From IMG/VR virus record IMGVR_UViG_2778261706_000022: DNA of 39,712 nt, one strand, 5' to 3'. How positions within the stretch are numbered: the stretch's first letter is position 1; every line of letters begins with the position of its first letter. Positions 28,988-39,712 of this stretch are shown piece after piece. The position numbers and the translations under genes are program-made. This DNA comes from a virus (taxonomy: Duplodnaviria; Heunggongvirae; Uroviricota; Caudoviricetes). The notes below the pieces were generated by a model that made no database searches, was not told the DNA's origin, and saw only the letters and a program-made list of their open reading frames with translations.

Positions 28988-29413
28988 TCAGAAAAGTGGC
29001 GGTTGTGTTCTTGCCAGATGCAGACGGCGCTGTTCACGTATGACGGTATAAATCTGGGTTTCTGACATCCGGTAATGGCGGCGAAGGGATTCAATTTTCT
29101 CGCCCCGGTCCCAGCGCGAAAATATCTCATTGTTTCGCAGCTCGGCAAAGAGAGATTCCCCGACCGGCAGGTAATAACCCCGTCCGCCCATATAGGCTGC
29201 CTGAGCCGCAGCCACCTTGCGTGCCAGTTTGCCGGCCAGTACCGGCTCAATCCCCTGACGCTGAAGTTCTGCGCCGGTGACTTCAACCAGTTCTGACAGG
29301 GTCCGCGGCCAGTTCTTTTTGAGAACATCATCAGGGATGTCATCAAGGCGGTCGATAAGGGCGTGCAGTTGCTCACTGTCACCACCAAACATGCTCATCT
29401 GAGTTTCTGCCAT
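28988..29413 (-). CDS. mor: Mor/C-family transcriptional activator
   Basis: 141-aa protein with C-terminal helix-turn-helix (MSETQIYTVIREQRRL), directly downstream of GemA. Only one Mor/C homologue is present. Confidence 0.65.
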   Translation of the reverse strand: MAETQMSMFGGDSEQLHALIDRLDDIPDDVLKKNWPRTLSELVEVTGAELQRQGIEPVLAGKLARKVAAAQAAYMGGRGYYLPVGESLFAELRNNEIFSRWDRGEKIESLRRHYRMSETQIYTVIREQRRLHLARTQPPLF

Positions 29414-29482: not shown

Positions 29483-29992
29483 TTAACGGGGAAGTGATTT
29501 TTCATACTGCCTGCAAACGGCGTCATACCCCATCAGCGTGCGTTCGGGCATTCCCATCGCGGCCAGCATTTTGCGGCGGTGCCATCGCTTGAGACGCTCC
29601 AGCACATCTGAGGCCAGGGCGGGGTGTTGCTCCAGCCACTGCCAGTTTGCCACACCTTCGCCGCCGTTTTGCGCGGCCGTCTGCGATTTCACCCAGCGGT
29701 TAAGGGCGGTTTCCGCACCATCAGAGATAAAGCCCTGCCGGTGCATCACCTTCCAGATGGCGCGAATTTTAGCGGTCACCGTACCCGGTTTTAAGGCCCG
29801 GTTAACCGGGTTCTGACGCACTTTAAAACCGCGTTTTTTGAAAACATCCAGCACGCGGGATAACTCATCCGGTGACATATCCCGGCAGCTGGTTTTGCCG
29901 GTGACCGCCAGTAGTACGGATGTGTAGGTTTCATCATCCAGGGCAAGCTCGCGTTTTGCCACATGAATGGCAGATATCAGTTTCCCTCTCAT
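29483..29992 (-). CDS. gemA: GemA-like regulatory protein
   Basis: LLAVTGKTSCRDMSPDELSRVLDVFKKRGF and LERLKRWHRR motifs match my recollection of Mu GemA. Confidence 0.7.
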   Translation of the reverse strand: MRGKLISAIHVAKRELALDDETYTSVLLAVTGKTSCRDMSPDELSRVLDVFKKRGFKVRQNPVNRALKPGTVTAKIRAIWKVMHRQGFISDGAETALNRWVKSQTAAQNGGEGVANWQWLEQHPALASDVLERLKRWHRRKMLAAMGMPERTLMGYDAVCRQYEKSLPR

Positions 29993-30285
29993 GCTGTATC
30001 AACACTCCTGCGGATATGATAGGTATTATTTTCCCGATCGAGCTGAACCCGATACTCCGGAGGAATCACAAAAATATTAAAACCATCATCAGTTTTTATT
30101 CTTGAGTAGCATTCCCCCTTATGATATCTGGCCAGTGCATTAATCAGAGAAGTCGCAGCCTGCCCAATCAGGTATTTTTTATGAAAAATACTGATAACTT
30201 TCCGGCACAGCCATCGTGTAATGACGAATGCACCGAAAAAGGATGTGATATATAAATACCAGAACAACTGCGAACTACTGTCCAT
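29989..30285 (-). CDS. Hypothetical membrane protein (98 aa)
   Basis: N-terminal TM helix (LFWYLYITSFFGAFVIT). AT-rich early-region gene. Confidence 0.4.
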   Translation of the reverse strand: MDSSSQLFWYLYITSFFGAFVITRWLCRKVISIFHKKYLIGQAATSLINALARYHKGECYSRIKTDDGFNIFVIPPEYRVQLDRENNTYHIRRSVDTA

Positions 30286-30472
30286 TATCTTTCTCCTTAT
30301 TCAGTCTTCTGCGGCATTCGGCACAGTCATCAGGGCTTTCAAATGTATCCGGCTCGCGATTATGAGCCAGATATAACCACCGTCCACATATACTGATATT
30401 TTCGCCTGTTTTAAAAAAATGATGCTTCCTGGCCATTAGTGGCCGCGCCCATCCAGCGGGTAGACTATTCAT
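30275..30472 (-). CDS. Hypothetical small Cys-containing protein (65 aa)
   Basis: ICGRW...DDCAEC pattern suggests a zinc-binding fold. Coupled to neighbours. Confidence 0.35.
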   Translation of the reverse strand: MNSLPAGWARPLMARKHHFFKTGENISICGRWLYLAHNREPDTFESPDDCAECRRRLNKEKDNGQ

Positions 30473-30800
30473 TTGCTTTATCCTCCATGCTGGACAGAAT
30501 CATATGTATTAATGTCGGGCGTGGAGATATACGCATTTCATTAAGCGTCTGAAGGGCAGCAACAGCTGCCTGTTTATCGGTGCCTTTGGCAATTTCAGCA
30601 AGAGAATGCACAATCCATAATGGGCTTAACGCTACGGCTGAATGCAGAATCATGTCATCCATAATAATTTCTGGCATATCCCGTTTGTCACATTCTTTAT
30701 CCATAAAAGAAACGATTTTTTCTGCATCTTCCGGTTTCATGCCTCCGGCGATGAGAATTTTACGATATTCATAAGACGATCTTAATTCAATACTCATCAT
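30465..30800 (-). CDS. Hypothetical protein (111 aa)
   Basis: ORF in the early operon; no recognisable motif. Confidence 0.4.
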   Translation of the reverse strand: MMSIELRSSYEYRKILIAGGMKPEDAEKIVSFMDKECDKRDMPEIIMDDMILHSAVALSPLWIVHSLAEIAKGTDKQAAVAALQTLNEMRISPRPTLIHMILSSMEDKANE

Positions 30801-30812
30801 TCACCTGCCTGT

Positions 30813-31205
30813 TTAATCAGTTTCCAGTGCTTTGCTACGGGCAACAGCCTCACACTCAAAAAATACCGACTCCGGCACACGCTCCTTTAATTCACGAACA
30901 AGAAAATCATTAACGAGTTCATGACGTCTTATATTTCTTTCCTTTTCCTCCTGGCGCAATACAGCAAGGCGGTATTCAACAGTCCGGCGTTGTTTCTGAA
31001 AGACAGCCAGTGCTTTTCTGGCAGAGTTACGCAATGTATCATCGCCACAGGGTTCGTATTCAAGCTGAAATTTAATCTCTTCAATGGTTTCTTTTATTTT
31101 TGCCAGCAAGCTAAGACAGTCGCTGATTGTCTTCAGTTTTTCATTATCAATATAACTTCTCACGCATTCACCTCCCGTCATTCCGGTAAAGCTGAAATAT
31201 GGCAC
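30813..31205 (-). CDS. Hypothetical coiled-coil protein (130 aa)
   Basis: ORF in the early operon with heptad-like charged/hydrophobic periodicity. Confidence 0.4.
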   Translation of the reverse strand: MPYFSFTGMTGGECVRSYIDNEKLKTISDCLSLLAKIKETIEEIKFQLEYEPCGDDTLRNSARKALAVFQKQRRTVEYRLAVLRQEEKERNIRRHELVNDFLVRELKERVPESVFFECEAVARSKALETD

Positions 31206-31489
31206 CAGTGCGTCACCTGTCCGTCCTCATCTTCAAGGCAGGCTCCGGTTTCTTCATCAATAAAAAAGCCTTCATACCCCATATGGCCGATGCGCAGTTC
31301 CTGTTGGTCACCATACTGAACAATCAGCACGACAGCCTCCATATCAGGCGGGAAAGCATCATTCAGTGAATGCCAGGGATAACCGCGCAAATCCCCGAAA
31401 TAAACACCGGTCAGCGTTCCGCCACAGACCGGCATTCCGACGGCACACACAAGGGGTTCATCTGATTCAACAAATAATGTCGTTATCAT
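31178..31489 (-). CDS. Hypothetical protein (103 aa)
   Basis: ORF in the early operon; start may be an internal ATG. Confidence 0.4.
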   Translation of the reverse strand: MITTLFVESDEPLVCAVGMPVCGGTLTGVYFGDLRGYPWHSLNDAFPPDMEAVVLIVQYGDQQELRIGHMGYEGFFIDEETGACLEDEDGQVTHWCHISALPE

Positions 31490-32037
31490 GGCATTAATTC
31501 CCGTAATACAACATCTTCGGCAGTCCGACGACGGTGATAAATAAAACTCACCGTGCCCTCGGATAATTCAAATTTCTCGCCGATTTCCCTAAAGGTAAGA
31601 CGCCGTGGTGATTCAGCATCCCGTAATTCACGAATAAGACGAACATCATCGTCAGGTATGCGGGTGAAGGGCAGCAACTCTCCGTATTTTTTCATGCTTA
31701 CGCCAATATATCGCGCCCGATTGTGGACAGAATCCCGGTCTCGCCCCAGATATTCTCCTATTTGCTTACCGGTCATTGTTCTGGCATTTTTTCGGATAAA
31801 TTTATCTTCATCAGGTTTAAATCTGAGGCGTTTGCATTTGAGCAACTCCGGGTAAGTACCGCGTAATAAAACAATCCGGTTATGTACACCCCAGAAACTT
31901 CTTTTTATCCTGACAGCAATATCCTTAACCGGGGTGGATGGATAAAGCGCAATCAGCAGCGCATCTTCTTCAGGTGTCCATGCGCGAACATGAGCGGGTG
32001 CACGGCCTTTTCTCCCCATGGGTTGTAATATCATCAT
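31486..32037 (-). CDS. Hypothetical DNA-binding protein (183 aa)
   Basis: WTPEEDALLIALY (Myb/SANT-like) near the N-terminus and LTFREIGEKFELSEGTVSFI (HTH-like) near the C-terminus. Confidence 0.45.
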   Translation of the reverse strand: MMILQPMGRKGRAPAHVRAWTPEEDALLIALYPSTPVKDIAVRIKRSFWGVHNRIVLLRGTYPELLKCKRLRFKPDEDKFIRKNARTMTGKQIGEYLGRDRDSVHNRARYIGVSMKKYGELLPFTRIPDDDVRLIRELRDAESPRRLTFREIGEKFELSEGTVSFIYHRRRTAEDVVLRELMP

Positions 32038-32040
32038 GCA

Positions 32041-32556
32041 TCACCCCCTGACTCGCTTTTCAGCAGCATAAAACTCATCAGACAGAATTTCGGTCATTTT
32101 CTGATTTGCGGGTTTTACGCCGCACTCAAGGTAAATCACATCGTCAACGCAGAACCACTTCACAGGGCCAAACATGATTGCCGAGAAATCAATACCCAGC
32201 CAGAACAACAGTGCATCGGTTCTGGCATACGTGACGGGCGAATATTCACGCCACAGACTGTTAAGTTCGTCAGAGGCAACGCGCAGGGCTTTGGGAATAC
32301 GTGATGTGCGCGGTGTGCAGCTCCAGCCATTCGACGCAGTCGGTTTTCGCCATAAGTCGCGATGAAAAGGATATTTGTCATCCATAAAGCGCAGCCCTTT
32401 AAAACAAAAGCCACTGATACCGGATACAAATACCGACCGGCACGCAACATTCAGCACGGCCTCAAGGCGTTTTGCCTCATCCTTAACTTTCTGGCAGTCC
32501 TGCTGATATTTTTGCCACGCGGCCAGCGCGGAAGGGTTTGATGTTTTAAAGAACAT
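32041..32556 (-). CDS. Hypothetical protein (171 aa)
   Basis: ORF coupled to neighbours in the early operon. Confidence 0.45.
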   Translation of the reverse strand: MFFKTSNPSALAAWQKYQQDCQKVKDEAKRLEAVLNVACRSVFVSGISGFCFKGLRFMDDKYPFHRDLWRKPTASNGWSCTPRTSRIPKALRVASDELNSLWREYSPVTYARTDALLFWLGIDFSAIMFGPVKWFCVDDVIYLECGVKPANQKMTEILSDEFYAAEKRVRG

Positions 32557-33089
32557 TACGCCACCTCCGCAGATATCCCGGCAGGCGCGGCCGTCCGGTC
32601 AACAATCAGGTAACGCAGAACGCGCGAGGTGATATTCCAGCCGCTTAAACCGCAGATAATGACACCCAGGCGTATGTCGATATACGCCATCACAAACTGG
32701 GGCACGCCTTCTTTCATGGCCTGCTCATCAACTTCAGCCACCACATAAACGGTTTCACAGGTCAGAACGCCCTGAGCAAATTCCCACGCCATTGACGGAA
32801 TATCATGCCCCTCAATCCACGGCAGGGATTTTCTGAAGCTGCACCACTGAACATCATCAGCCGCACCTTCCTGGCTGCATTTGCGACGAACCGGCTGCAC
32901 CGGGCGGGGACGCGGAATATCATAAAAACCGTTACATTCCGTCAGCACCCCGGCATCGACCGCATCACGCAGAAAATAAACCATCGAGGATGGCGGCATA
33001 TTCATTTTTTCAGCCAGAATGCCGCAGGTCAGACGCCCGTAAATACTCAGCCAGTTTTTAACCCCTTCAAGCACTTTTGCACCAATCAT
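32556..33089 (-). CDS. Hypothetical protein (177 aa)
   Basis: ORF coupled to neighbours (ATG overlaps the upstream stop). Confidence 0.45.
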   Translation of the reverse strand: MIGAKVLEGVKNWLSIYGRLTCGILAEKMNMPPSSMVYFLRDAVDAGVLTECNGFYDIPRPRPVQPVRRKCSQEGAADDVQWCSFRKSLPWIEGHDIPSMAWEFAQGVLTCETVYVVAEVDEQAMKEGVPQFVMAYIDIRLGVIICGLSGWNITSRVLRYLIVDRTAAPAGISAEVA

Positions 33090-33092
33090 GAA

Positions 33093-33635
33093 TTATTCCT
33101 CCGTCAGCGCCACATATTCAGAATGTTTAATCTCCTGGCATTCTTCAGGAATACCCCCTTTTATTTCCCTGCCATAAGCGCCTACTTTAAACACCACGCA
33201 CAGGGCATCACGGGAGAGCGACGGGGTCCACCAGGAGTCCATGTTAAACATGGAGGGGATTCTCATTACCCCCAGCTTTTCACAGATCCAGACAAGGAAA
33301 TCAGGACGCTTTCTTAACTCGCGTTCAGCGGCTTCAATCATTGCGGCAATCGCCGGTCCTTCAGGGCATGACTCATCAGGTCTGGCAATAAAGCACGGTC
33401 CGTCCCCGATAAAAGCCACATCATCGCGCTTACGCCAGCCCGCAGGCAGAGCACCAGAAAAATAAAACTCACTGATTACGTCCATGGCAAACGGCTTTAA
33501 GCGCAATCCGGCAGCGCCTGTATTTTTCAGTAATGCCCGAAGAATACTGTTGCGTAGCGGTAAAACAGTCTGTTGATATTTGGTGAAATATTTATTTGTC
33601 TGCACACGGTCTAATTTGAAATAAAAATATGCCAT
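33093..33635 (-). CDS. Hypothetical protein (180 aa)
   Basis: First ORF downstream of gam in the early operon. Confidence 0.45.
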   Translation of the reverse strand: MAYFYFKLDRVQTNKYFTKYQQTVLPLRNSILRALLKNTGAAGLRLKPFAMDVISEFYFSGALPAGWRKRDDVAFIGDGPCFIARPDESCPEGPAIAAMIEAAERELRKRPDFLVWICEKLGVMRIPSMFNMDSWWTPSLSRDALCVVFKVGAYGREIKGGIPEECQEIKHSEYVALTEE

Positions 33636-33732
33636 ATATCCTGTTCCTTATTTTCAGTTTACAGGCGCAGGCAGTCCCCTGACGCGAGCGCCATACTTAA
33701 AACGATGTGATATTTAAAGATTTAATGCGGTG

Positions 33733-34263
33733 TTATTTATTCAGTCCGGCGTCCTGTTCAAAAGGCTCGACATAAAAACTTTCAGCGCCTTTATTCACCT
33801 TAATACCGGCAATGCCTTTCACTGCATCCGGCTCCGCTAGGACCGCTTCCTTGTTCACTTCCTCTTTCGTGCGGATGAATCGCTCAAGCCCCATACGGCG
33901 CAGCATTTCAATCACACCTTCCACATCACGGCTGACGCTGCATGATGGATTTCCCAGCCGCCATGACACTGTTCCGGTGGTCAGATTGGCTGTTTTGGTT
34001 TTGCCGCCGTTCGTCAGCTCATCGCGGTTGGTTTTGCACCAGTCCTGAATCCCCTTAAAAAGCACTTTGATTTCTTTTTTAAGGTTTTCAATCTGCGGCG
34101 TATAACGGGCGGTGATTTCTGCCACTTCATCATTCATCGCCGTTTCCAGCCGTAGCGCCTCTCGCTGAATATCGCCCAGGGTACGGATATCGCGGCTGAC
34201 TTCTTCGCGGGTCTGCGGTGCAGCCTCGGCTGCGGCCTTTAATTTTGTAACACGTTTAGCCAT
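33733..34263 (-). CDS. gam: Gam, host-nuclease inhibitor (Ku-like DNA-end binding protein)
   Basis: RLETAMNDEVAEITARY, NRDELTNGGKTKTANLTTGTVSWR and RFIRTKEEVNKEAVLAEP match my recollection of Mu Gam. Confidence 0.85.
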   Translation of the reverse strand: MAKRVTKLKAAAEAAPQTREEVSRDIRTLGDIQREALRLETAMNDEVAEITARYTPQIENLKKEIKVLFKGIQDWCKTNRDELTNGGKTKTANLTTGTVSWRLGNPSCSVSRDVEGVIEMLRRMGLERFIRTKEEVNKEAVLAEPDAVKGIAGIKVNKGAESFYVEPFEQDAGLNK

Positions 34264-34274
34264 TTTGTTTTTCC

Positions 34275-34568
34275 TTATTGCAGTGTGCCTGATGCTTTAT
34301 GCACGCGGTGGCGTTTAATGATGGCATCCGCCCCAAAAGCCTGTACAGATGCCTGAAATTCCGCTGAGAGAAACTGAATAATTTCAGGACTGTGATACTG
34401 GAGAATACTTGCATAAACGCCACAGAGTGACGTCGGCCTGTTATTCGTATCACGTTCTGTTTTTACATCCACACCAATCTTTTCATGCACTTCAACACAG
34501 TCATTGCCTGCCGGTTTTTCGTCATGCGAAACATGCTTAAATTCAAAAATAACGCGTACTTTGCTCAT
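34275..34568 (-). CDS. Hypothetical protein, paralogue B of a tandem pair
   Basis: N-terminus MSKVRVIFEFKH resembles MSKVVRIIFEYKE of the upstream gene. Internal ATG at 34568 chosen as start. Confidence 0.45.
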   Translation of the reverse strand: MSKVRVIFEFKHVSHDEKPAGNDCVEVHEKIGVDVKTERDTNNRPTSLCGVYASILQYHSPEIIQFLSAEFQASVQAFGADAIIKRHRVHKASGTLQ

Positions 34569-34572
34569 GGAA

Positions 34573-34845
34573 TTACCCCTGCTGATTAAATTCATTACCT
34601 TTAATAACCCCGGAACGCATGCTCATATCTTTCATGAGCGCACTGGCTTTCATTGCCACAAGTTCAGCAAAGTCTCTGCTTTCCGCGAGCATAACCACCC
34701 CAAAAATCATGGCGGGTCCATCACCTTTCTGCTTTATCCCGGTTGAACGTATGTCCAGACTTACCCCCATGCGCACTGTTCCATCAGCGTTTTTATGGAT
34801 AACGTGCTCCTTGTATTCGAAAATAATGCGTACGACTTTACTCAT
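34573..34845 (-). CDS. Hypothetical protein, paralogue A of a tandem pair
   Basis: 90-aa ORF sharing its N-terminal motif with the next gene. Confidence 0.45.
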   Translation of the reverse strand: MSKVVRIIFEYKEHVIHKNADGTVRMGVSLDIRSTGIKQKGDGPAMIFGVVMLAESRDFAELVAMKASALMKDMSMRSGVIKGNEFNQQG

Positions 34846-35123
34846 CCTCTGGTCCTCGTTCTGTTTGGATAACTGACCCGGCGTCTGACCTCACGGCAGA
34901 ACCGAATCATGGCATTAAAGGCTTCTTCCTCCGTCACCGCTTCCGGTATCCCCGGAACCAGTAACTGCTCCTGTTCATCACGTCCATGACGCGCCATAAC
35001 CTCAATCACATGCCGTACCGTGGCAGGCTTTCCGGCAACTATCGGCAATGCACCTTCCGGCAGGACGTAACCAAACTCAATAAGACCACTCGACCACGCC
35101 CATGCAATGAGATTTTTTTTCAC
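34842..35123 (-). CDS. Hypothetical early protein (93 aa)
   Basis: ORF in the B-proximal early region. Confidence 0.4.
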   Translation of the reverse strand: MKKNLIAWAWSSGLIEFGYVLPEGALPIVAGKPATVRHVIEVMARHGRDEQEQLLVPGIPEAVTEEEAFNAMIRFCREVRRRVSYPNRTRTRG

Positions 35124-35124
35124 C

Positions 35125-35391
35125 TCACACCTCCCAGTAAACCGTGCAGCCGCTGATGCGGGTGGCCTTCACACGGCGGCGCAGGCCGTTGGTCTGTATG
35201 GTGATTTCAATTTCACCGGTTCCCTGCACGTTGCCTACCGGCGGCGTGGTTTTCAGTGCAAAACGTTGCGGATAGCGCTTACTGCGTTCCAGTACCGCAC
35301 CGGCAAGTTCGGTCAGACGGCGCGCGCTGTTCAGGGAGTCGAATAAATTCATTTTGTTACCGCAGGATTGCATATTCATATAACACCTCAT
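35125..35391 (-). CDS. Hypothetical early protein (88 aa)
   Basis: ORF in the B-proximal early region; start uncertain. Confidence 0.35.
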   Translation of the reverse strand: MRCYMNMQSCGNKMNLFDSLNSARRLTELAGAVLERSKRYPQRFALKTTPPVGNVQGTGEIEITIQTNGLRRRVKATRISGCTVYWEV

Positions 35392-35619
35392 TTAGCTGAC
35401 TTGTTTCGCACCAACAGAACGGCATATTCCGCTGTAAACGTCTGTCGCACCTTCGCGATCAAGTCCGGCAGATATCACCATTCGTGTGCGGTCATTAAAT
35501 TCAAAAAGTAAATCGCCACATTCTTTATTTTCGGCCAGTGAAATCACCTTCACGTTATCGAAATTAACCAGGTAAAAGCGTCCGTAAATATCAGGAATAT
35601 TAAATACCGCCATAATCAC
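35392..35619 (-). CDS. Hypothetical early protein (75 aa)
   Basis: ORF immediately downstream of B (the Mu kil position). Confidence 0.4.
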   Translation of the reverse strand: MIMAVFNIPDIYGRFYLVNFDNVKVISLAENKECGDLLFEFNDRTRMVISAGLDREGATDVYSGICRSVGAKQVS

Positions 35620-36548
35620 ACCTGTGAGAGTAATTCAGGGTTGGTATAAACCTCTTTAAAGGCCGCATTAATATGTTTTTCTGTCAGCGCCGCGCCTTCA
35701 CCGCTGGCGGTGAGCCACGCCTGGTTAAGCGTATGTGTCAGAACGCGTAACGCTCCCGGCTTTTCAGCGATAGCCTGCATGACGGCCAGCTCGGCCTCAC
35801 CACTGATCCCCCACGCCCTGGCAATGGCCAGCACATCCGCCTTTTTGGCCTTGCGAAGTTGTTTTGTACGGGCAAGACGGCTGAACAGGCGCGATAAATC
35901 ATCAAAGGCGCGGCGTCCACCTTTAAACAATCCGCGCGGGTTACCAATAAGCACCATCCCGATCCCCGTGGCGTCCTGAATTGCCCGGAGTTGCTCCAGA
36001 CCGTCAATACCCAGATGATCCGCCTCATCCACAATCACCAGTCCACGCGTTCCCATCAGGCGACGGCGGATGGCGCGGGATAATGCCCCTTTGTTCGCGC
36101 GGGTGTAATCAATCCCCAGCGCATCGGCCAGCTCCAGCAGACACTCCGTGACGCTGGAGTGCGCGGGTGACAGGGTGATCATCCAGGTGTTTGGTTGCTC
36201 CTGGCAGTAATTACGGGCAGTGGCCGTTTTACCCACACCCGGTACGCCCACAATAACGTTAATACAGCCCATCAGACGAACCGCCTGAAACAGTGCGCGC
36301 AGCTCCTGGACTGTCTGCGTTTCCACAAACTGCGGCGGTTCCGGCAGTGCGCTTTGTTTATTCCAGTTTTCATACCAGGAACGCAGGGAAGCAGCCACAG
36401 CGGCGTTATCGCCTTTATATTTCCCCTTGCGGAAAGCCGATAATGTGCCGTCGGAAATTCCCGCCTCTCTGGCGATGGCATACTGCGTCAGTACGCCGCC
36501 ATCAATAAGTTCATCAATGGTCTTGATTACATCGTTAATATCAGTCAT
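35616..36548 (-). CDS. B: Transposition ATPase / target DNA activator B (AAA+)
   Basis: Walker A GVPGVGKT and Walker B LVIVDEADH motifs, with an N-terminal HTH-like region. Directly downstream of the transposase. Confidence 0.85.
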   Translation of the reverse strand: MTDINDVIKTIDELIDGGVLTQYAIAREAGISDGTLSAFRKGKYKGDNAAVAASLRSWYENWNKQSALPEPPQFVETQTVQELRALFQAVRLMGCINVIVGVPGVGKTATARNYCQEQPNTWMITLSPAHSSVTECLLELADALGIDYTRANKGALSRAIRRRLMGTRGLVIVDEADHLGIDGLEQLRAIQDATGIGMVLIGNPRGLFKGGRRAFDDLSRLFSRLARTKQLRKAKKADVLAIARAWGISGEAELAVMQAIAEKPGALRVLTHTLNQAWLTASGEGAALTEKHINAAFKEVYTNPELLSQV

Positions 36549-36586: not shown

Positions 36587-36620
36587 AACCTGAGTCGCCG
36601 CTCGGGTTATTTTTTTATTT
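36587..36620. other. Hairpin with flanking A/T runs between transposase and B genes
   Basis: AACCTGAG-tcgccg-CTCGGGTT stem followed on the plus strand by ATTTTTTTATTT; on the minus-strand RNA the hairpin is followed by AUUUGAUU. Confidence 0.4.
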
Positions 36621-38710
36621 CAGGCCAGCGGGTCATTTTCTTTTAATTTCGCTTCCAGCAACTGCAATCCCCGCTGGAAATTACGCTCGTATTCTTCATC
36701 AGGTTCATCGTCAGCGACCGGTTGCTGAACGGTCACCGTATTACCCACAGGGCGGTATATGTTTTCCAGCCAGGGCTCCTGCGGCTTGTGCTCCAGCACG
36801 TTGACAACCTCATCCTCGGCATCACGGATTTTTTCCTCTGCGCGTTTACGCATGCCTTTAAGGCGTTGCTGCTGTTTGTAGTATTCCGCGCTGACCGGGA
36901 AGGCTTCGCGTTTATTGCCGTCCCATACCGCCTCGCAAATCACGCTGCCATCCAGGCGACGTACGGTAATTCGTTCGGCATCATGAATGTCATAGCTGAT
37001 AAGCACCTTACGGCCATGCTCGTCACGCAGCTCGGGCGCGTAGTAAATATTATTCAGCCAGCGTATTTCACAGCGTCTTACAGGGCGTTCCACCATCGGC
37101 CGGAACATATCCCGCAGCTCAACATCGGACAGCCATTCAATTTCCGTGTCCTCTTCCGCCAGGCGTTTTTTTCTGAACTCCGCCGGGCTGTAATGCTTGC
37201 CGTTCGGCTTCACCGGTAATTCATCGTGCGGCCGGTTGTTGTACCACTCAACACCGTCACGAATGGCATCAATCAGTTCAGACCAGGACGGTAAATCACG
37301 CATCGCTGACTGCTGCCGGGCGTTCAGCCGTTTGCCCTGTTGCAGGGCAGTAAATGCCGAGCGTAAATCGCGGTTGGTTTTGCGTAACGTCTCGCGATCT
37401 GCACCTTTCCCGAAATAGGTGCGGTATTTACGGGCTATGCGCATCGGTAATGTGCGGTTAAGCCGTTCGATAATGCCTCGTCCCTGCGGATTACCGGCAA
37501 TCCCGGTCGGGTGATTAATCCCCAGTCGCGGCAGTATCCCCACAACCTCCTTATCCAGGATGTCGGCGGTTTCCCCGGAGCCGTTATCCGAGTAATACAG
37601 AAACGGTTTGCCGTGATGGCGAATGCCGTGCTGTATGGCACCGGCTACGGCGAAAACATTTTCAGCCAGGTCAAGGCTCCAGCCCACCACAAAGCGCGTG
37701 CCACCGTCGATAACAAAGGTCACTTCCGGTGCAAATGGCCGACCGTGAACCGGGTGTGCGCATTTCAGCTTCATGCCGTGACCGTCACCAATCCAGACAT
37801 AATTCACCGGCATTCTGGACCAGTCGCGGCGCGTGAATCCCTCAAGCTGGCGGTATTCACTGCCGGTCACCCGGCCTTTTTGTTTCACCACTTCCGGCAG
37901 TTTCTTCATTGCGCGGCGAATGGTGTCATAAGACGGCATGATATCGAGCATATAAGGCTCATTAGCGTGCCGGTGCTGCCATTCAGCGACAAAATCCTCG
38001 TAAGCCTCGGTCATTGGTCGGCCGTTTGACTGGCGATACTGCGCCAGAAATTCGGGCAGCCAGTTAATATCTTCGGCTTTTATTTCCTGGCGCTTACCCG
38101 GTGCCAGTAAAAGCAGGCGTTCAGCGGCGTTCTGCGCCTTGTTAAAGGCCGCAATCCAGCGTTTCAGCGTGATTTCACTTAACGCGCGGCTGTTTCCCTT
38201 TTTGGCGTTCGCCGTCTCAACCATTGCCACAATGCGCTCGTCCAGCTGCGAACGTGCCAGGTTGTCAACGATAAACCGGATAGCCTTCGCACAGCTGAAA
38301 CCAGGTTGTTGCGCGACTTTCAGAACTTCGCTGACGATCGCGATTCGTGCATCAGCCACCTGGCGCTGGTTTTCAGTCAGGGCATTAAGGCGTTCGACCA
38401 TCAGTTGTGGTGATCCGCGATATGCCTCCACCGCATCAACCACGGCAGGCGAGCGTCTGGCCTTTGTCACCACTGGAGCCGGTGATTCATCGACTTTTTG
38501 AGTCATCAGTTGCAGGGCGTAGCGTTCACGTAATGCCTGCTGCGTCACTTCAGGTAAACAGTCGATGCTGTATTCAGTTGCTTTAGAGCCTGAGCGACGA
38601 CGGGAACAACAGCTTTTCCCTTGTACGTAACGTTGTAATGCCTGGCGAATACCTTTTGTTGTAGCAGGCATTCCGGGCGCGCCAATCAGTTCTTTTGCAA
38701 TGACATACAT
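36620..38710 (-). CDS. A: DDE transposase (MuA-like)
   Basis: 696-aa ORF between ner and B. Central region (WIGDGHGMKLK..., GIPE-like context) resembles the MuA catalytic core. Confidence 0.85.
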   Translation of the reverse strand: MYVIAKELIGAPGMPATTKGIRQALQRYVQGKSCCSRRRSGSKATEYSIDCLPEVTQQALRERYALQLMTQKVDESPAPVVTKARRSPAVVDAVEAYRGSPQLMVERLNALTENQRQVADARIAIVSEVLKVAQQPGFSCAKAIRFIVDNLARSQLDERIVAMVETANAKKGNSRALSEITLKRWIAAFNKAQNAAERLLLLAPGKRQEIKAEDINWLPEFLAQYRQSNGRPMTEAYEDFVAEWQHRHANEPYMLDIMPSYDTIRRAMKKLPEVVKQKGRVTGSEYRQLEGFTRRDWSRMPVNYVWIGDGHGMKLKCAHPVHGRPFAPEVTFVIDGGTRFVVGWSLDLAENVFAVAGAIQHGIRHHGKPFLYYSDNGSGETADILDKEVVGILPRLGINHPTGIAGNPQGRGIIERLNRTLPMRIARKYRTYFGKGADRETLRKTNRDLRSAFTALQQGKRLNARQQSAMRDLPSWSELIDAIRDGVEWYNNRPHDELPVKPNGKHYSPAEFRKKRLAEEDTEIEWLSDVELRDMFRPMVERPVRRCEIRWLNNIYYAPELRDEHGRKVLISYDIHDAERITVRRLDGSVICEAVWDGNKREAFPVSAEYYKQQQRLKGMRKRAEEKIRDAEDEVVNVLEHKPQEPWLENIYRPVGNTVTVQQPVADDEPDEEYERNFQRGLQLLEAKLKENDPLA

Positions 38711-38960: not shown

Positions 38961-39127
38961 ACTTCCTCTATTCTAAAAAGTTACCCGCGCGGATATTCGT
39001 GCGGATATCTGTACGGGTAAATAATAGAACAAACAAAAGAACCAAATCAAGGTATTTTGTTCTTTTTATTCTTTGCGGTGTTTTTGTTATTAATATCAAT
39101 AAGATAAATACAAAGGAACCTGAGAGC
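38961..39127. promoter_or_regulatory. Divergent c / ner control region (candidate operators and transposition enhancer)
   Basis: 167-bp AT-rich gap between divergent repressor and ner genes. Contains the 40-bp palindrome TTACCCG-CGCGGATATTCGTGCGGATAT-CTGTA-CGGGTAA at 38981-39020 with an internal GCGGATAT direct repeat. Confidence 0.5.
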
Positions 39128-39712
39128 ATGAACATGAAAAACAGTTCTTTTCTCGACGAAGGAAAAGAACCAGTGATCGAACGGATTTTTCGTCTTGCAG
39201 AGCGTTACAAATCGAGAAGTGAGGCGGCTAGAGCATGGGGAATAAACGTTCAGACATTGCAGAACTACTACAAAAGGAGAAACAATCAGCCGCCACCACA
39301 ACCAAGAAAGCACCATCTCCAGAACATTGCAGAAAGAGAACATGTATCTATGGAGTGGCTAGTCAATGGTTATGGTGATGAGCCAAGCATGAAAAAAGAA
39401 CCAATTGAACAAACAAAAAGAACAAAAAAACAAAGAATTGATGATAGTGATTCCATCATCATGAGGGCGTGGGACTCGCTAACTTCATCTGAACAAGAGA
39501 TTTTGTCCAACTTATTGATCAGAAAAGGGGCCGAACTACTAACCGTTTTGCTTGATACAGATATTCAAAAACTGCACTCATTGAGCGGAGTCAAAAGAGC
39601 ACTAGCATTGAGTCTACAAGAGTTACCCGATGATACTGTAAGAGAGATTTATGAAGAATGTGAAGCTAAGGTTAATCATTTAAATGTAACCCAGAAAAAG
39701 GCTGGTGCGTAA
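39128..39712 (+). CDS. Repressor c-like protein
   Basis: Divergent from ner. ATG at 39128 is preceded by AAAGGAA. 194-aa protein with an N-terminal HTH-like segment (SRSEAARAWGINVQTLQNY). Low GC. Confidence 0.6.
   Translation: MNMKNSSFLDEGKEPVIERIFRLAERYKSRSEAARAWGINVQTLQNYYKRRNNQPPPQPRKHHLQNIAEREHVSMEWLVNGYGDEPSMKKEPIEQTKRTKKQRIDDSDSIIMRAWDSLTSSEQEILSNLLIRKGAELLTVLLDTDIQKLHSLSGVKRALALSLQELPDDTVREIYEECEAKVNHLNVTQKKAGA

What the first reader, a model, noticed from the sequence alone, without database searches (positions are those of the whole stretch)
31486..33635. Four coupled medium-sized unknown genes between gam and the small-ORF block
Mu has only a few very small genes between gam and gemA. 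Here four ORFs of 171-183 aa each are stacked with 0-4 nt spacing or overlap, adding about 2 kb. One (31486-32037) has a Myb/SANT-like WTPEEDALL motif plus a sigma-4/LuxR-like HTH, suggesting a DNA-binding regulator. The others have no recognisable motifs. Together with the small-ORF block this is the largest stretch of unexplained coding sequence in the element.
Basis: inference. Interest (0 to 1): 0.6.

Follow-up and report, generated by a model that had tools for sequence, protein, structure and literature searches.

The report
Mosaic accessory early genes of Mu-like prophage
The four tightly packed genes are real, but they are an ordinary mix-and-match stretch of a Mu-type phage's "semi-essential" early region: two are direct counterparts of phage Mu genes gp11 and gp12, and the other two are swappable extras, all of unknown function.

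Summary
The four minus-strand ORFs exist exactly as described: 180, 177, 171 and 183 aa, spaced +3, -1 and +3 nt. All are under purifying selection.

The premise that Mu lacks such genes is wrong. Mu has two 176-aa genes directly after gam.
- **P2** (32556-33089) is the Mu gp11 ortholog: 67% identity, Pfam Gp11_C at 8e-40.
- **P3** (32041-32556) is the Mu gp12 ortholog: 54% identity, PF26885.
- **P4** (31486-32037) is a basic protein of three HTH repeats. Its last two repeats match Mu gp9/E8 (hhalign 97%). P4 and E8 never co-occur in related loci.
- **P1** (33093-33635) belongs to a tiny DUF5420-related clade, also seen as SfMu ORF11. It is probably a distant paralog of gp12 (hhalign 56-83%; controls 0.5% or less).

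The four genes are not co-inherited. The slot after gam holds P1, DUF5420 or nothing. About a quarter of gp11-bearing loci lack gp12. P4 is absent from Mu-type phages.

No structural or sequence match reveals a biochemical function. The best reading is independent, translationally coupled accessory early genes: one, perhaps two, nucleic-acid binders and two effector-like α/β proteins. This is known sequence of unknown function, and of low novelty.

The parts
33733..34263 (-). gam (host-nuclease inhibitor), the upstream anchor gene
   Evidence: Pfam Phage_Mu_Gam at 1.5e-41. 57% identity to Mu Gam over the full length.
33636..33732 (-). Conserved 97-nt spacer between gam and the variable slot
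   Evidence: Highly conserved between the window, Mu, SfMu, two E. coli prophages and a Yersinia Mu-like phage, whichever gene follows. No promoter or terminator consensus, no Rfam hit, and an RNA fold z-score of -0.2.
33093..33635 (-). P1: 180-aa accessory protein of a small DUF5420-related clade, occupying a facultative slot
   Evidence: PHROG 2260 at 5.6e-75. Pfam DUF5420 gives only 12 bits against a cut-off of 26. 39% identity to the SfMu DUF5420 protein. Only 12 hits among 1.84e9 representatives. hhalign to the gp12 family gives 56-83% probability. The slot holds P1, DUF5420 or nothing.
32556..33089 (-). P2: ortholog of Mu gp11, with an N-terminal winged-helix domain, a disordered linker and a Gp11_C beta-rich domain
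32041..32556 (-). P3: ortholog of Mu gp12 (E13), an alpha/beta protein with no solved structural relative
31486..32037 (-). P4: basic protein of three tandem HTH repeats (about residues 17-60, 71-113 and 124-169), an extended relative of Mu gp9/E8
   Evidence: Repeat alignment. PHROG 323 at 6e-58 and sub-threshold HTH Pfam hits. Residues 66-166 match Mu_9 by BLAST at 3e-8 and by hhalign at 96.8%. pI 10.2. Two allele classes differ mainly in the putative recognition helices.
31178..31489 (-). o103: next translationally coupled ORF (ATGA overlap with P4). Very acidic. Not part of the four but contiguous with them.
   Evidence: -4 nt overlap. PHROG 6925. pI 4.05. Present or absent independently of P4.

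Best explanation
The region is one particular combination of independently exchangeable accessory cassettes. It lies in the 'semi-essential' part of the early (Pe-type) operon of an Sp18-type Mu-like prophage of E. coli O157.

From gam onward the order is:
1. a conserved 97-nt spacer;
2. P1, a facultative DUF5420-clade protein that is probably a distant paralog of gp12;
3. P2, the Mu gp11 ortholog (winged helix plus Gp11_C domain);
4. P3, the Mu gp12 ortholog;
5. P4, a basic three-HTH-repeat DNA-binding protein. Its last two repeats are homologous to Mu gp9/E8, and it appears to take the place of E8, which Mu-type phages encode upstream of gam.

**Shown:** the identities, the orthology, the translational coupling, the purifying selection and the mosaic, non-unit inheritance.

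**Inferred:**
- All four are made together early after induction or infection, from the long early transcript.
- None is needed for core transposition.
- P4, and possibly P2, acts by binding nucleic acid as a sequence-specific regulatory or architectural factor.
- P1 and P3 act as stand-alone protein effectors that modulate the host or phage DNA transactions, like their neighbours Kil, Gam and GemA.

The tight spacing reflects the compact polycistronic early operon. It does not indicate a four-component machine.
For: - **Mu annotation.** Mu has two 176-aa genes directly after gam.
- **Orthology to Mu.** BLASTP gives P2=Mu_11 (67%, 9e-80), P3=Mu_12 (54%, 3e-67), and P4 residues 66-166 against Mu_9 (3e-8). 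hhalign of P4 against Mu9 gives 96.8%, E=2.4e-10.
- **Family assignments.** Pfam Gp11_C at 8e-40. PF26885 on P3 homologs. PHROG families for all four.
- **Coupling and selection.** Spacing and Shine-Dalgarno sequences. dN/dS mostly 0.12-0.45.
- **Mosaicism, gp12-selected loci.** The slot after gam holds P1 in 20, DUF5420 in 14, nothing in 25 and both in 1. P4 is present in 41 and absent in 23. E8 only occurs in 14, P4 only in 30, neither in 5, both in 0.
- **Mosaicism, gp11-selected loci.** 20 of 76 lack gp12, with unrelated small ORFs or nothing in its place.
- **Annotated variants.** SCU-106, JE86-ST05, SfMu and YpM23.
- **P1-gp12 homology.** 56-83% probability over 150 colinear columns, against 0.5% or less for reversed or unrelated controls.
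- **P4 properties.** pI 10.2, with allelic divergence concentrated in the recognition-helix halves of the repeats.
- **Literature.** The functions of Mu's semi-essential genes are 'largely unknown' (PMC3820752). SfMu ORF11 is absent from Mu and D108 (PMC4406740). Sp18 is an apparently intact Mu-like prophage (PMC2669165).
Against: - No biochemical function is demonstrated for any of the four or for their Mu orthologs, so the 'host or phage DNA-transaction modulator' role is inference from position and neighbours.
- P2's winged-helix domain is acidic (pI 5.0) and its model is of low confidence (pLDDT 52-62 in that domain). DNA binding by P2 is therefore uncertain.
- gp11 and gp12 are adjacent, with 1-nt overlap, in every gp12-selected locus that has both. 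A functional gp11-gp12 partnership is therefore not excluded.
- The P1-gp12 homology is below the level usually taken as proof (probability below 90%).
- Transcription from the early promoter was not tested here.
Confidence: 0.7

Rival explanations
1. The four genes form a single co-inherited functional module (an operon-within-an-operon) that is new relative to Mu. This is what the first reader implied.
For: Very tight translational coupling. The commonest architecture in Sp18-type loci is gam-P1-P2-P3-P4, seen in 10 of 38 complete intervals.
Against: P2 and P3 are present in Mu itself. P1 is replaced by DUF5420 or is absent in otherwise near-identical prophages. 20 of 76 gp11 loci lack gp12. 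P4 is absent from Mu-type phages, and its alleles reassort freely with their neighbours. The gp12 family occurs alone in unrelated phages.
Confidence: 0.04
2. Counter-defence cassettes with HTH regulators, in an Acr-Aca-like arrangement. On this reading P1/DUF5420 and gp12 are inhibitors of host anti-phage systems sitting in a variable accessory slot, and the adjacent wHTH (gp11) and HTH (P4) proteins autoregulate them.
For: A variable-content slot is bounded by a conserved spacer. Expression is early. The gp12-like family is spread across early regions of unrelated temperate and lytic phages. Each alpha/beta protein is immediately followed by a helix-turn-helix protein. There is no match to any housekeeping function.
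Against: No promoter-like site lies in the spacer. No known anti-defence homology was found, though no anti-defence library was available. At 170-180 aa the proteins are larger than typical Acrs. gp11's winged helix is acidic. gp12-family genes in other phages lack an adjacent gp11 or P4 homolog.
Confidence: 0.13
3. Replication or transposition accessory factors, corresponding to the classical 'arm'-type enhancement of Mu replication. On this reading DNA-binding P2 and P4 plus P1 and P3 help shape the transposition or replication nucleoprotein, or protect and process DNA ends alongside Gam.
For: The genes lie directly downstream of gam in the same operon as A and B. One, possibly two, of the four proteins are nucleic-acid-binding. 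gp12-family genes in other phages lie near ligase and Bet recombinase genes.
Against: No homology to any replication or recombination protein was found. The genes are frequently absent from otherwise complete Mu-like phages. The mapping of 'arm' could not be checked in the accessible literature.
Confidence: 0.12
4. Some of the ORFs are spurious or decaying, arising by chance in a degraded prophage.
For: P1's family is tiny, and one P1 allele comparison gives dN/dS of 0.85.
Against: All four ORFs are intact across dozens of alleles, with dN/dS mostly 0.12-0.45. Each has its own Shine-Dalgarno sequence. Homologs exist at 35-70% identity in independently isolated phages. The exact sequences are present on 445 to over 1000 contigs.
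Confidence: 0.01

Closest known systems
Phage Mu gp11 (Mu_11, formerly E10-E12; Pfam PF25754 Gp11_C)
   Same: P2 is 67% identical over the full length. It has the same size (177 against 176 aa), follows the same conserved post-gam spacer in gene order, and is followed by gp12 with a 1-nt overlap.
   Different: Here P1 is inserted between the spacer and gp11. The function of Mu gp11 is itself unknown.
Phage Mu gp12 (Mu_12, formerly E13; PF26885, 'Mu-Gp12 family protein')
   Same: P3 is 54% identical over 169 residues and occupies the same position after gp11.
   Different: None structural. The family is broader than Mu-like phages. Its function is unknown.
Phage Mu gp9 (Mu_9, formerly E8; RefSeq 'transcriptional regulator, D5-like' in SfMu; PHROG 323)
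   Same: P4 residues 66-166 align with the whole 95-aa protein: 32% identity, hhalign 96.8%. P4 and E8 are mutually exclusive across 49 loci.
   Different: P4 has a third, N-terminal HTH repeat. It lies downstream of gp12 instead of upstream of gam.
SfMu ORF11 / DUF5420 (PF17457)
   Same: It occupies the same slot between gam and gp11. It is 39% identical to P1 and shares the YFK, PD..EG, P.F..W and IKHSE[FY].A.TEE motifs.
   Different: P1 scores only 12 bits against the Pfam model, whose cut-off is 26. It belongs to a sister clade, with only 6 of 14 members of the family alignment matching DUF5420.
HTH DNA-binding modules of phage homing (HNH) endonucleases and methylases
   Same: P4 residues 12-114 match the non-catalytic part of mycobacteriophage HNH endonuclease and methylase ORFs at 35% identity. 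PADLOC gives a weak 'homing endonuclease' hit.
   Different: P4 has no catalytic domain. It consists only of DNA-binding repeats.

Membership tests
Mu gp11 family (PF25754 Gp11_C) | Match to the Gp11_C Pfam model above the gathering score | tested here: met
   P2 scores 135.5 bits against a cut-off of 27, E=8e-40, covering the full 78-position model.
Mu gp11 family (PF25754 Gp11_C) | Full-length similarity and synteny with Mu gp11 | tested here: met
   67% identity over 177 aa. It is downstream of gam and upstream of gp12, as in Mu.
Mu gp12 family (PF26885) | Membership of PF26885 | tested here: inconclusive
   The local Pfam copy lacks this model, so P3 had no hit. All 46 homologs, including the 98%-identical cluster representative, carry a precomputed PF26885 assignment. 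RefSeq names an allele 'Mu-Gp12 family protein'.
Mu gp12 family (PF26885) | Full-length similarity and synteny with Mu gp12 | tested here: met
   54% identity over 169 aa, E=3e-67. It lies immediately after gp11.
DUF5420 (PF17457) | Score at or above Pfam's gathering threshold | tested here: not met
   P1 scores 12 bits against a cut-off of 26, E=0.19. Only 6 of 14 members of the P1-family alignment match at E<0.01.
DUF5420 (PF17457) | Homology to bona fide members | tested here: met
   P1 is 36-39% identical over the full length to P1-like proteins of SfMu and Yersinia Mu-like phages, the SfMu one being named DUF5420 by RefSeq. A P1 profile retrieves DUF5420-type proteins at E 1e-4 to 1e-6.
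Myb/SANT DNA-binding domain (PF00249) | Domain match above threshold covering the three-helix domain | tested here: not met
   P4 scores 16.9 bits against a cut-off of 24.4. Only residues 19-31 align, to 13 of 46 model positions.
Sigma-70 region 4 / LuxR-type HTH (PF04545) | Domain match above threshold | tested here: not met
   P4 scores 23.3 bits against a cut-off of 24.1, over residues 145-169. This is a narrow miss: an HTH is likely, but family membership is not established.
PHROG 323 'transcriptional regulator, D5-like' / Mu gp9 (E8) | Significant profile match | tested here: met
   PHROG 323 at E=6.3e-58, residues 2-182. hhalign against the Mu9 family gives 96.8%.
Known anti-phage defence systems (PADLOC) | Match to any defence-system component | tested here: not met
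   No hits for P1-P3. P4 has only weak hits, at E=0.01-0.02, through its HTH modules.
Acr-Aca-type counter-defence locus | Own promoter with an Aca operator; inhibitor activity against a defence system | not testable with these tools
   No promoter consensus was found in the spacer. No anti-defence HMM library or assay was available.

The most novel reading that the evidence does not exclude
P1/DUF5420 and gp12 together define a previously unrecognised superfamily of early phage effector proteins. The fold has no solved relative, and the family spreads from Mu-like prophages to lytic Klebsiella, Vibrio and Acinetobacter phages and, by structure, to actinophages. The post-gam slot of enterobacterial Mu-like phages would then be an accessory hot-spot where such effectors are swapped, possibly as counter-defence or host-takeover factors. 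P4/E8 would be an allele-specific DNA-binding regulator whose recognition helices are diversifying.
Probability: 0.15. Interest if true: 0.5.

Novelty: already known. Interest (0 to 1): 0.2.

Why it matters
Mainly as a correction. The stretch is not an unexplained addition to the Mu plan; it is the Sp18-type version of Mu's semi-essential early region.

The residual value is modest.
- It shows that the gam-gemA interval of enterobacterial Mu-like phages is a cassette mosaic with a fixed, conserved entry spacer.
- It links DUF5420 and P1 to gp12 as probable paralogs.
- It identifies P4 as a positional and homologous substitute for Mu E8, with allele classes that differ at the putative DNA-reading helices.

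Together these give concrete, cheap deletion and binding experiments for genes whose function has been open since the Mu genome was sequenced.

Tried and rejected
- **NCBIfam and PADLOC scans** gave nothing informative.
- **PDB sequence searches** with single proteins and with family profiles found no relatives.
- **BFVD** returned only uncharacterised proteins. AFDB50 was unavailable.
- **First P1-against-gp12 profile comparison**, with shallow alignments, was negative. It became suggestive only after adding diverse DUF5420 members.
- **Internal promoter, terminator or structured RNA in the 97-nt spacer:** no consensus sites, no Rfam family, fold z-score -0.2.
- **Neighbours of gp12-family genes in non-Mu phages** gave no Pfam clues.
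- **Other paralogy** among the four genes or with neighbouring small ORFs: none beyond P1-P3 and P4-Mu9.
- **Literature searches** for DUF5420, the Mup11/Mup12 locus tags, 'arm'/SEE mapping, and Mu early genes as anti-defence genes found nothing specific.
- **The search for related loci with the divergent gp12 alignment** failed because the alignment had no conserved stretch.
Full report
**Context.** The window carries a Mu-like prophage whose early operon runs on the minus strand. The gene order is:
- repressor (38999-39712, plus strand), ner, transposase A (36620-38710) and B (35616-36548);
- five small ORFs, then gam (33733-34263);
- the four ORFs of the finding;
- five further small ORFs, then gemA (29483-29992), mor (28988-29413) and the lysozyme gene.

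The 2.3-kb stretch is 100% identical to E. coli O157:H7 chromosomes. It is present at 80% coverage or more in 214 of 5,426 complete E. coli genomes. A Mu-like element inserted in Stx phages carries it at 96-97% identity. It corresponds to the Sp18-type Mu-like prophage, which the literature describes as apparently intact (PMC2669165).

**The observation.**
- Each starts with ATG behind a Shine-Dalgarno sequence.
- The junctions are +3, -1 (TAATG) and +3 nt. P4 overlaps the next ORF by 4 nt (ATGA). A 97-nt spacer separates gam from P1.
- RefSeq annotates the same boundaries.
- Against diverged alleles from IMG/VR loci, dN/dS is mostly 0.12-0.45 for the four genes, with one P1 comparison at 0.85. 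gam gives 0.08-0.13. The exact protein sequences occur on 445 to over 1000 public contigs. These are real, expressed-type genes.

The curated Mu record shows two 176-aa genes, Mu_11 and Mu_12, immediately after gam, followed by genes of 60, 100 and 55 aa.
- BLASTP against Mu gives P2=Mu_11 (67% identity over the full length, 9e-80) and P3=Mu_12 (54%, 3e-67).
- P2's C-terminal half matches Pfam 'Phage Mu Gp11 C-terminal domain' at 8e-40.
- All P3 homologs carry PF26885, and RefSeq uses the name 'Mu-Gp12 family protein'.
- So only P1 and P4 (about 1.1 kb) are additional relative to Mu. The gam-to-gemA interval is 3741 nt here against 1908 nt in Mu, and the remainder of the difference comes from the larger downstream small-ORF block.

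**P4.**
- The protein is basic (pI 10.2). It consists of three tandem repeats of about 50 residues, each an acidic '[P]-[DE]-[DE]-D' helix followed by an HTH.
- The Pfam hits are all just below threshold: Sigma70_r4 at 23.3 against 24.1 bits, HTH_AsnC and MarR_2. The Myb hit covers only 13 residues. PHROG 323 'transcriptional regulator, D5-like' matches at 6e-58.
- Repeats 2 and 3 are homologous to the whole of Mu gp9/E8, by BLAST at 3e-8 and by hhalign at 96.8% probability with E=2.4e-10. Repeats 1 and 2 resemble the non-catalytic DNA-binding part of mycobacteriophage HNH endonuclease and methylase ORFs.
- Among the 49 IMG/VR loci informative for both genes, E8 (upstream of gam) and P4 (downstream of gp12) are never found together: 14 have E8 only, 30 have P4 only, and 5 have neither. 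This is the pattern expected of functional substitutes.
- P4 occurs in two allele classes, at about 73% and at 85-100% identity to the window copy, within otherwise roughly 95%-identical prophages. The differences cluster in the second (recognition-helix) half of every repeat. Two alleles are repeat-level recombinants. This suggests diverging DNA specificity.

**P2 (gp11).**
- The family appears confined to Mu-like prophages and phages of Enterobacterales.
- The AlphaFold model is weak overall (pLDDT 59.7). It shows an N-terminal three-helix unit, a disordered Pro/Arg-rich linker at residues 50-88, and a better-defined beta-rich C-terminal domain with pLDDT 76-88.
- The winged helix is acidic (pI 5.0), so nucleic-acid binding is plausible but not secure.

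**P3 (gp12) and P1.**
- gp12-family genes are found beyond Mu-like phages. They occur in the early regions of Klebsiella Lastavirus, Vibrio, Acinetobacter and Pseudomonas phages, without gp11 or P4 neighbours.
- P1 has no Mu homolog. It belongs to a very small family: an exhaustive profile search of 1.84 billion representatives returned 12 hits.
- P1 is 36-39% identical to the proteins in the same slot of SfMu and of Yersinia Mu-like phages. RefSeq names the SfMu protein DUF5420. The SfMu authors had noted that this ORF11 is absent from Mu and D108 (PMC4406740).
- P1 itself fails the Pfam DUF5420 threshold at 12 against 26 bits. Six of 14 members of the family alignment pass.
- With a diverse alignment, the P1/DUF5420 profile aligns colinearly over 150 columns with the gp12 profile, at probability 56-83% and E of 1e-5 to 1e-4. 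Reversed and unrelated controls give 0.5% or less over 5-32 columns. The two families share the N-terminal [YF]-F-K strand and the C-terminal I-x-x-[SD]-E-[FY]-x-x-A strand-helix.
- I regard distant paralogy as probable but not proven.

**Co-inheritance.**
- Annotated genomes already show the P1 slot holding P1 (window), a DUF5420 protein (strain SCU-106, SfMu) or nothing (JE86-ST05, Mu).
- In 69 gp12-selected IMG/VR loci the slot held P1 in 20, DUF5420 in 14, nothing in 25 and both in 1. Every combination with P4 present or absent was seen.
- In gp11-selected loci, 20 of 76 informative loci lacked gp12. Its place was taken by unrelated small ORFs or by nothing; one locus reads gam, P1-like, gp11, gemA.
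- At least one locus has gp12 without gp11 (L078).
- The 97-nt spacer after gam is strongly conserved whatever follows it. It has no promoter or terminator consensus, no Rfam match and no unusual RNA stability.
- Hence the block is a mosaic of independently exchangeable cassettes inside a compact polycistronic operon, not a unit.

**Function.**
- Nothing in Pfam, NCBIfam, PADLOC, PHROGs, PDB sequences or the fold libraries assigns a biochemical activity.
- The Mu literature available here states that the semi-essential early genes have largely unknown functions (PMC3820752).
- The most defensible mechanistic statement has four parts:
  - The genes are co-translated early from the long early transcript.
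  - P4, and perhaps P2, binds nucleic acid in a sequence-specific manner.
  - P1 and P3 are stand-alone alpha/beta effectors.
  - All are dispensable accessories of the kind that surround them (Kil, Gam, GemA).
- Counter-defence and replication-accessory roles remain open and are listed as rivals.

**Verdict.** The genes are already catalogued: Mu gp11, Mu gp12, an E8-related protein and a DUF5420-related protein. They are widespread in E. coli and are not a co-inherited module. Novelty is low. The small new points are the probable P1-gp12 paralogy, the P4/E8 substitution with recognition-helix allelism, and the conserved entry spacer of a variable slot.

Noticed in passing
window 33636-33732 (minus strand): The 97-nt spacer after gam is highly conserved between this prophage, Mu, SfMu, two other E. 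coli prophages and a Yersinia Mu-like phage, regardless of whether P1, DUF5420 or gp11 follows. It has an AT-rich half, then a GGCGC...GCGCC inverted repeat. It has no promoter or terminator consensus, no Rfam hit, and an ordinary fold energy. Its role is unexplained; possibilities include a recombination junction, a protein-binding site or an RNA-processing site.
   Followed up: partly
window 31178-31489 (minus strand): The 103-aa ORF overlapping P4's stop codon (ATGA) is extremely acidic: pI 4.05, with 18 Asp/Glu against 2 Lys/Arg. It matches PHROG 6925 (unknown function). It is present or absent independently of P4 in related loci. The charge profile is reminiscent of DNA-mimic proteins, but this was not tested.
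   Followed up: no
P4 alleles, e.g. L017, L021, L025 (class 2) against the window; L042 and L046 (recombinants): There are two P4 allele classes, at about 73% and at 85-100% identity to the window copy, in otherwise roughly 95%-identical prophages. The substitutions concentrate in the putative recognition helices of all three repeats. L042 and L046 carry a diverged, partly class-2-like repeat 2 (76% identical to the window copy) in an otherwise class-1 background.
   Followed up: partly
window 30001-35000 against 8001-30000: G+C drops to 0.42-0.52 across the accessory early region, against 0.52-0.62 (mostly 0.55-0.60) in the late and structural region. This is consistent with the early cassettes being horizontally exchanged.
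   Followed up: no
L121 6437-6715, L111 6467-6715, L124 6440-6718 and similar loci: In Mu-type loci that lack gp12, its place is taken by other small ORFs. One is a conserved Cys-rich ORF of about 60-90 aa (…FVLLVGTCGNDACDAIPVTEKIWPTEQAC…), with a lipoprotein-like look.
   Followed up: no
window 35125-35391 (minus strand): The 88-aa ORF two genes downstream of B is weakly similar to Mu Kil (33% over 39 aa, E=1.5e-4). RefSeq labels the equivalent gene in strain 380-94 'Kil protein family', so it is likely the Kil counterpart.
   Followed up: no
window 34275-34595 and 34573-34845 (minus strand): The two small ORFs directly upstream of gam (106 and 90 aa) look like weak paralogs of each other: 33% over 55 aa, E=0.02. 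They occupy the position where Mu has E7 and E8.
   Followed up: no
protein cluster look-up: P1 (180 aa) and P2 (177 aa) were reported in the same 90%-identity cluster, although profile comparison shows they are unrelated (hhalign 0.1%). This is probably a clustering artefact, for example through a fused or read-through gene call.
   Followed up: no
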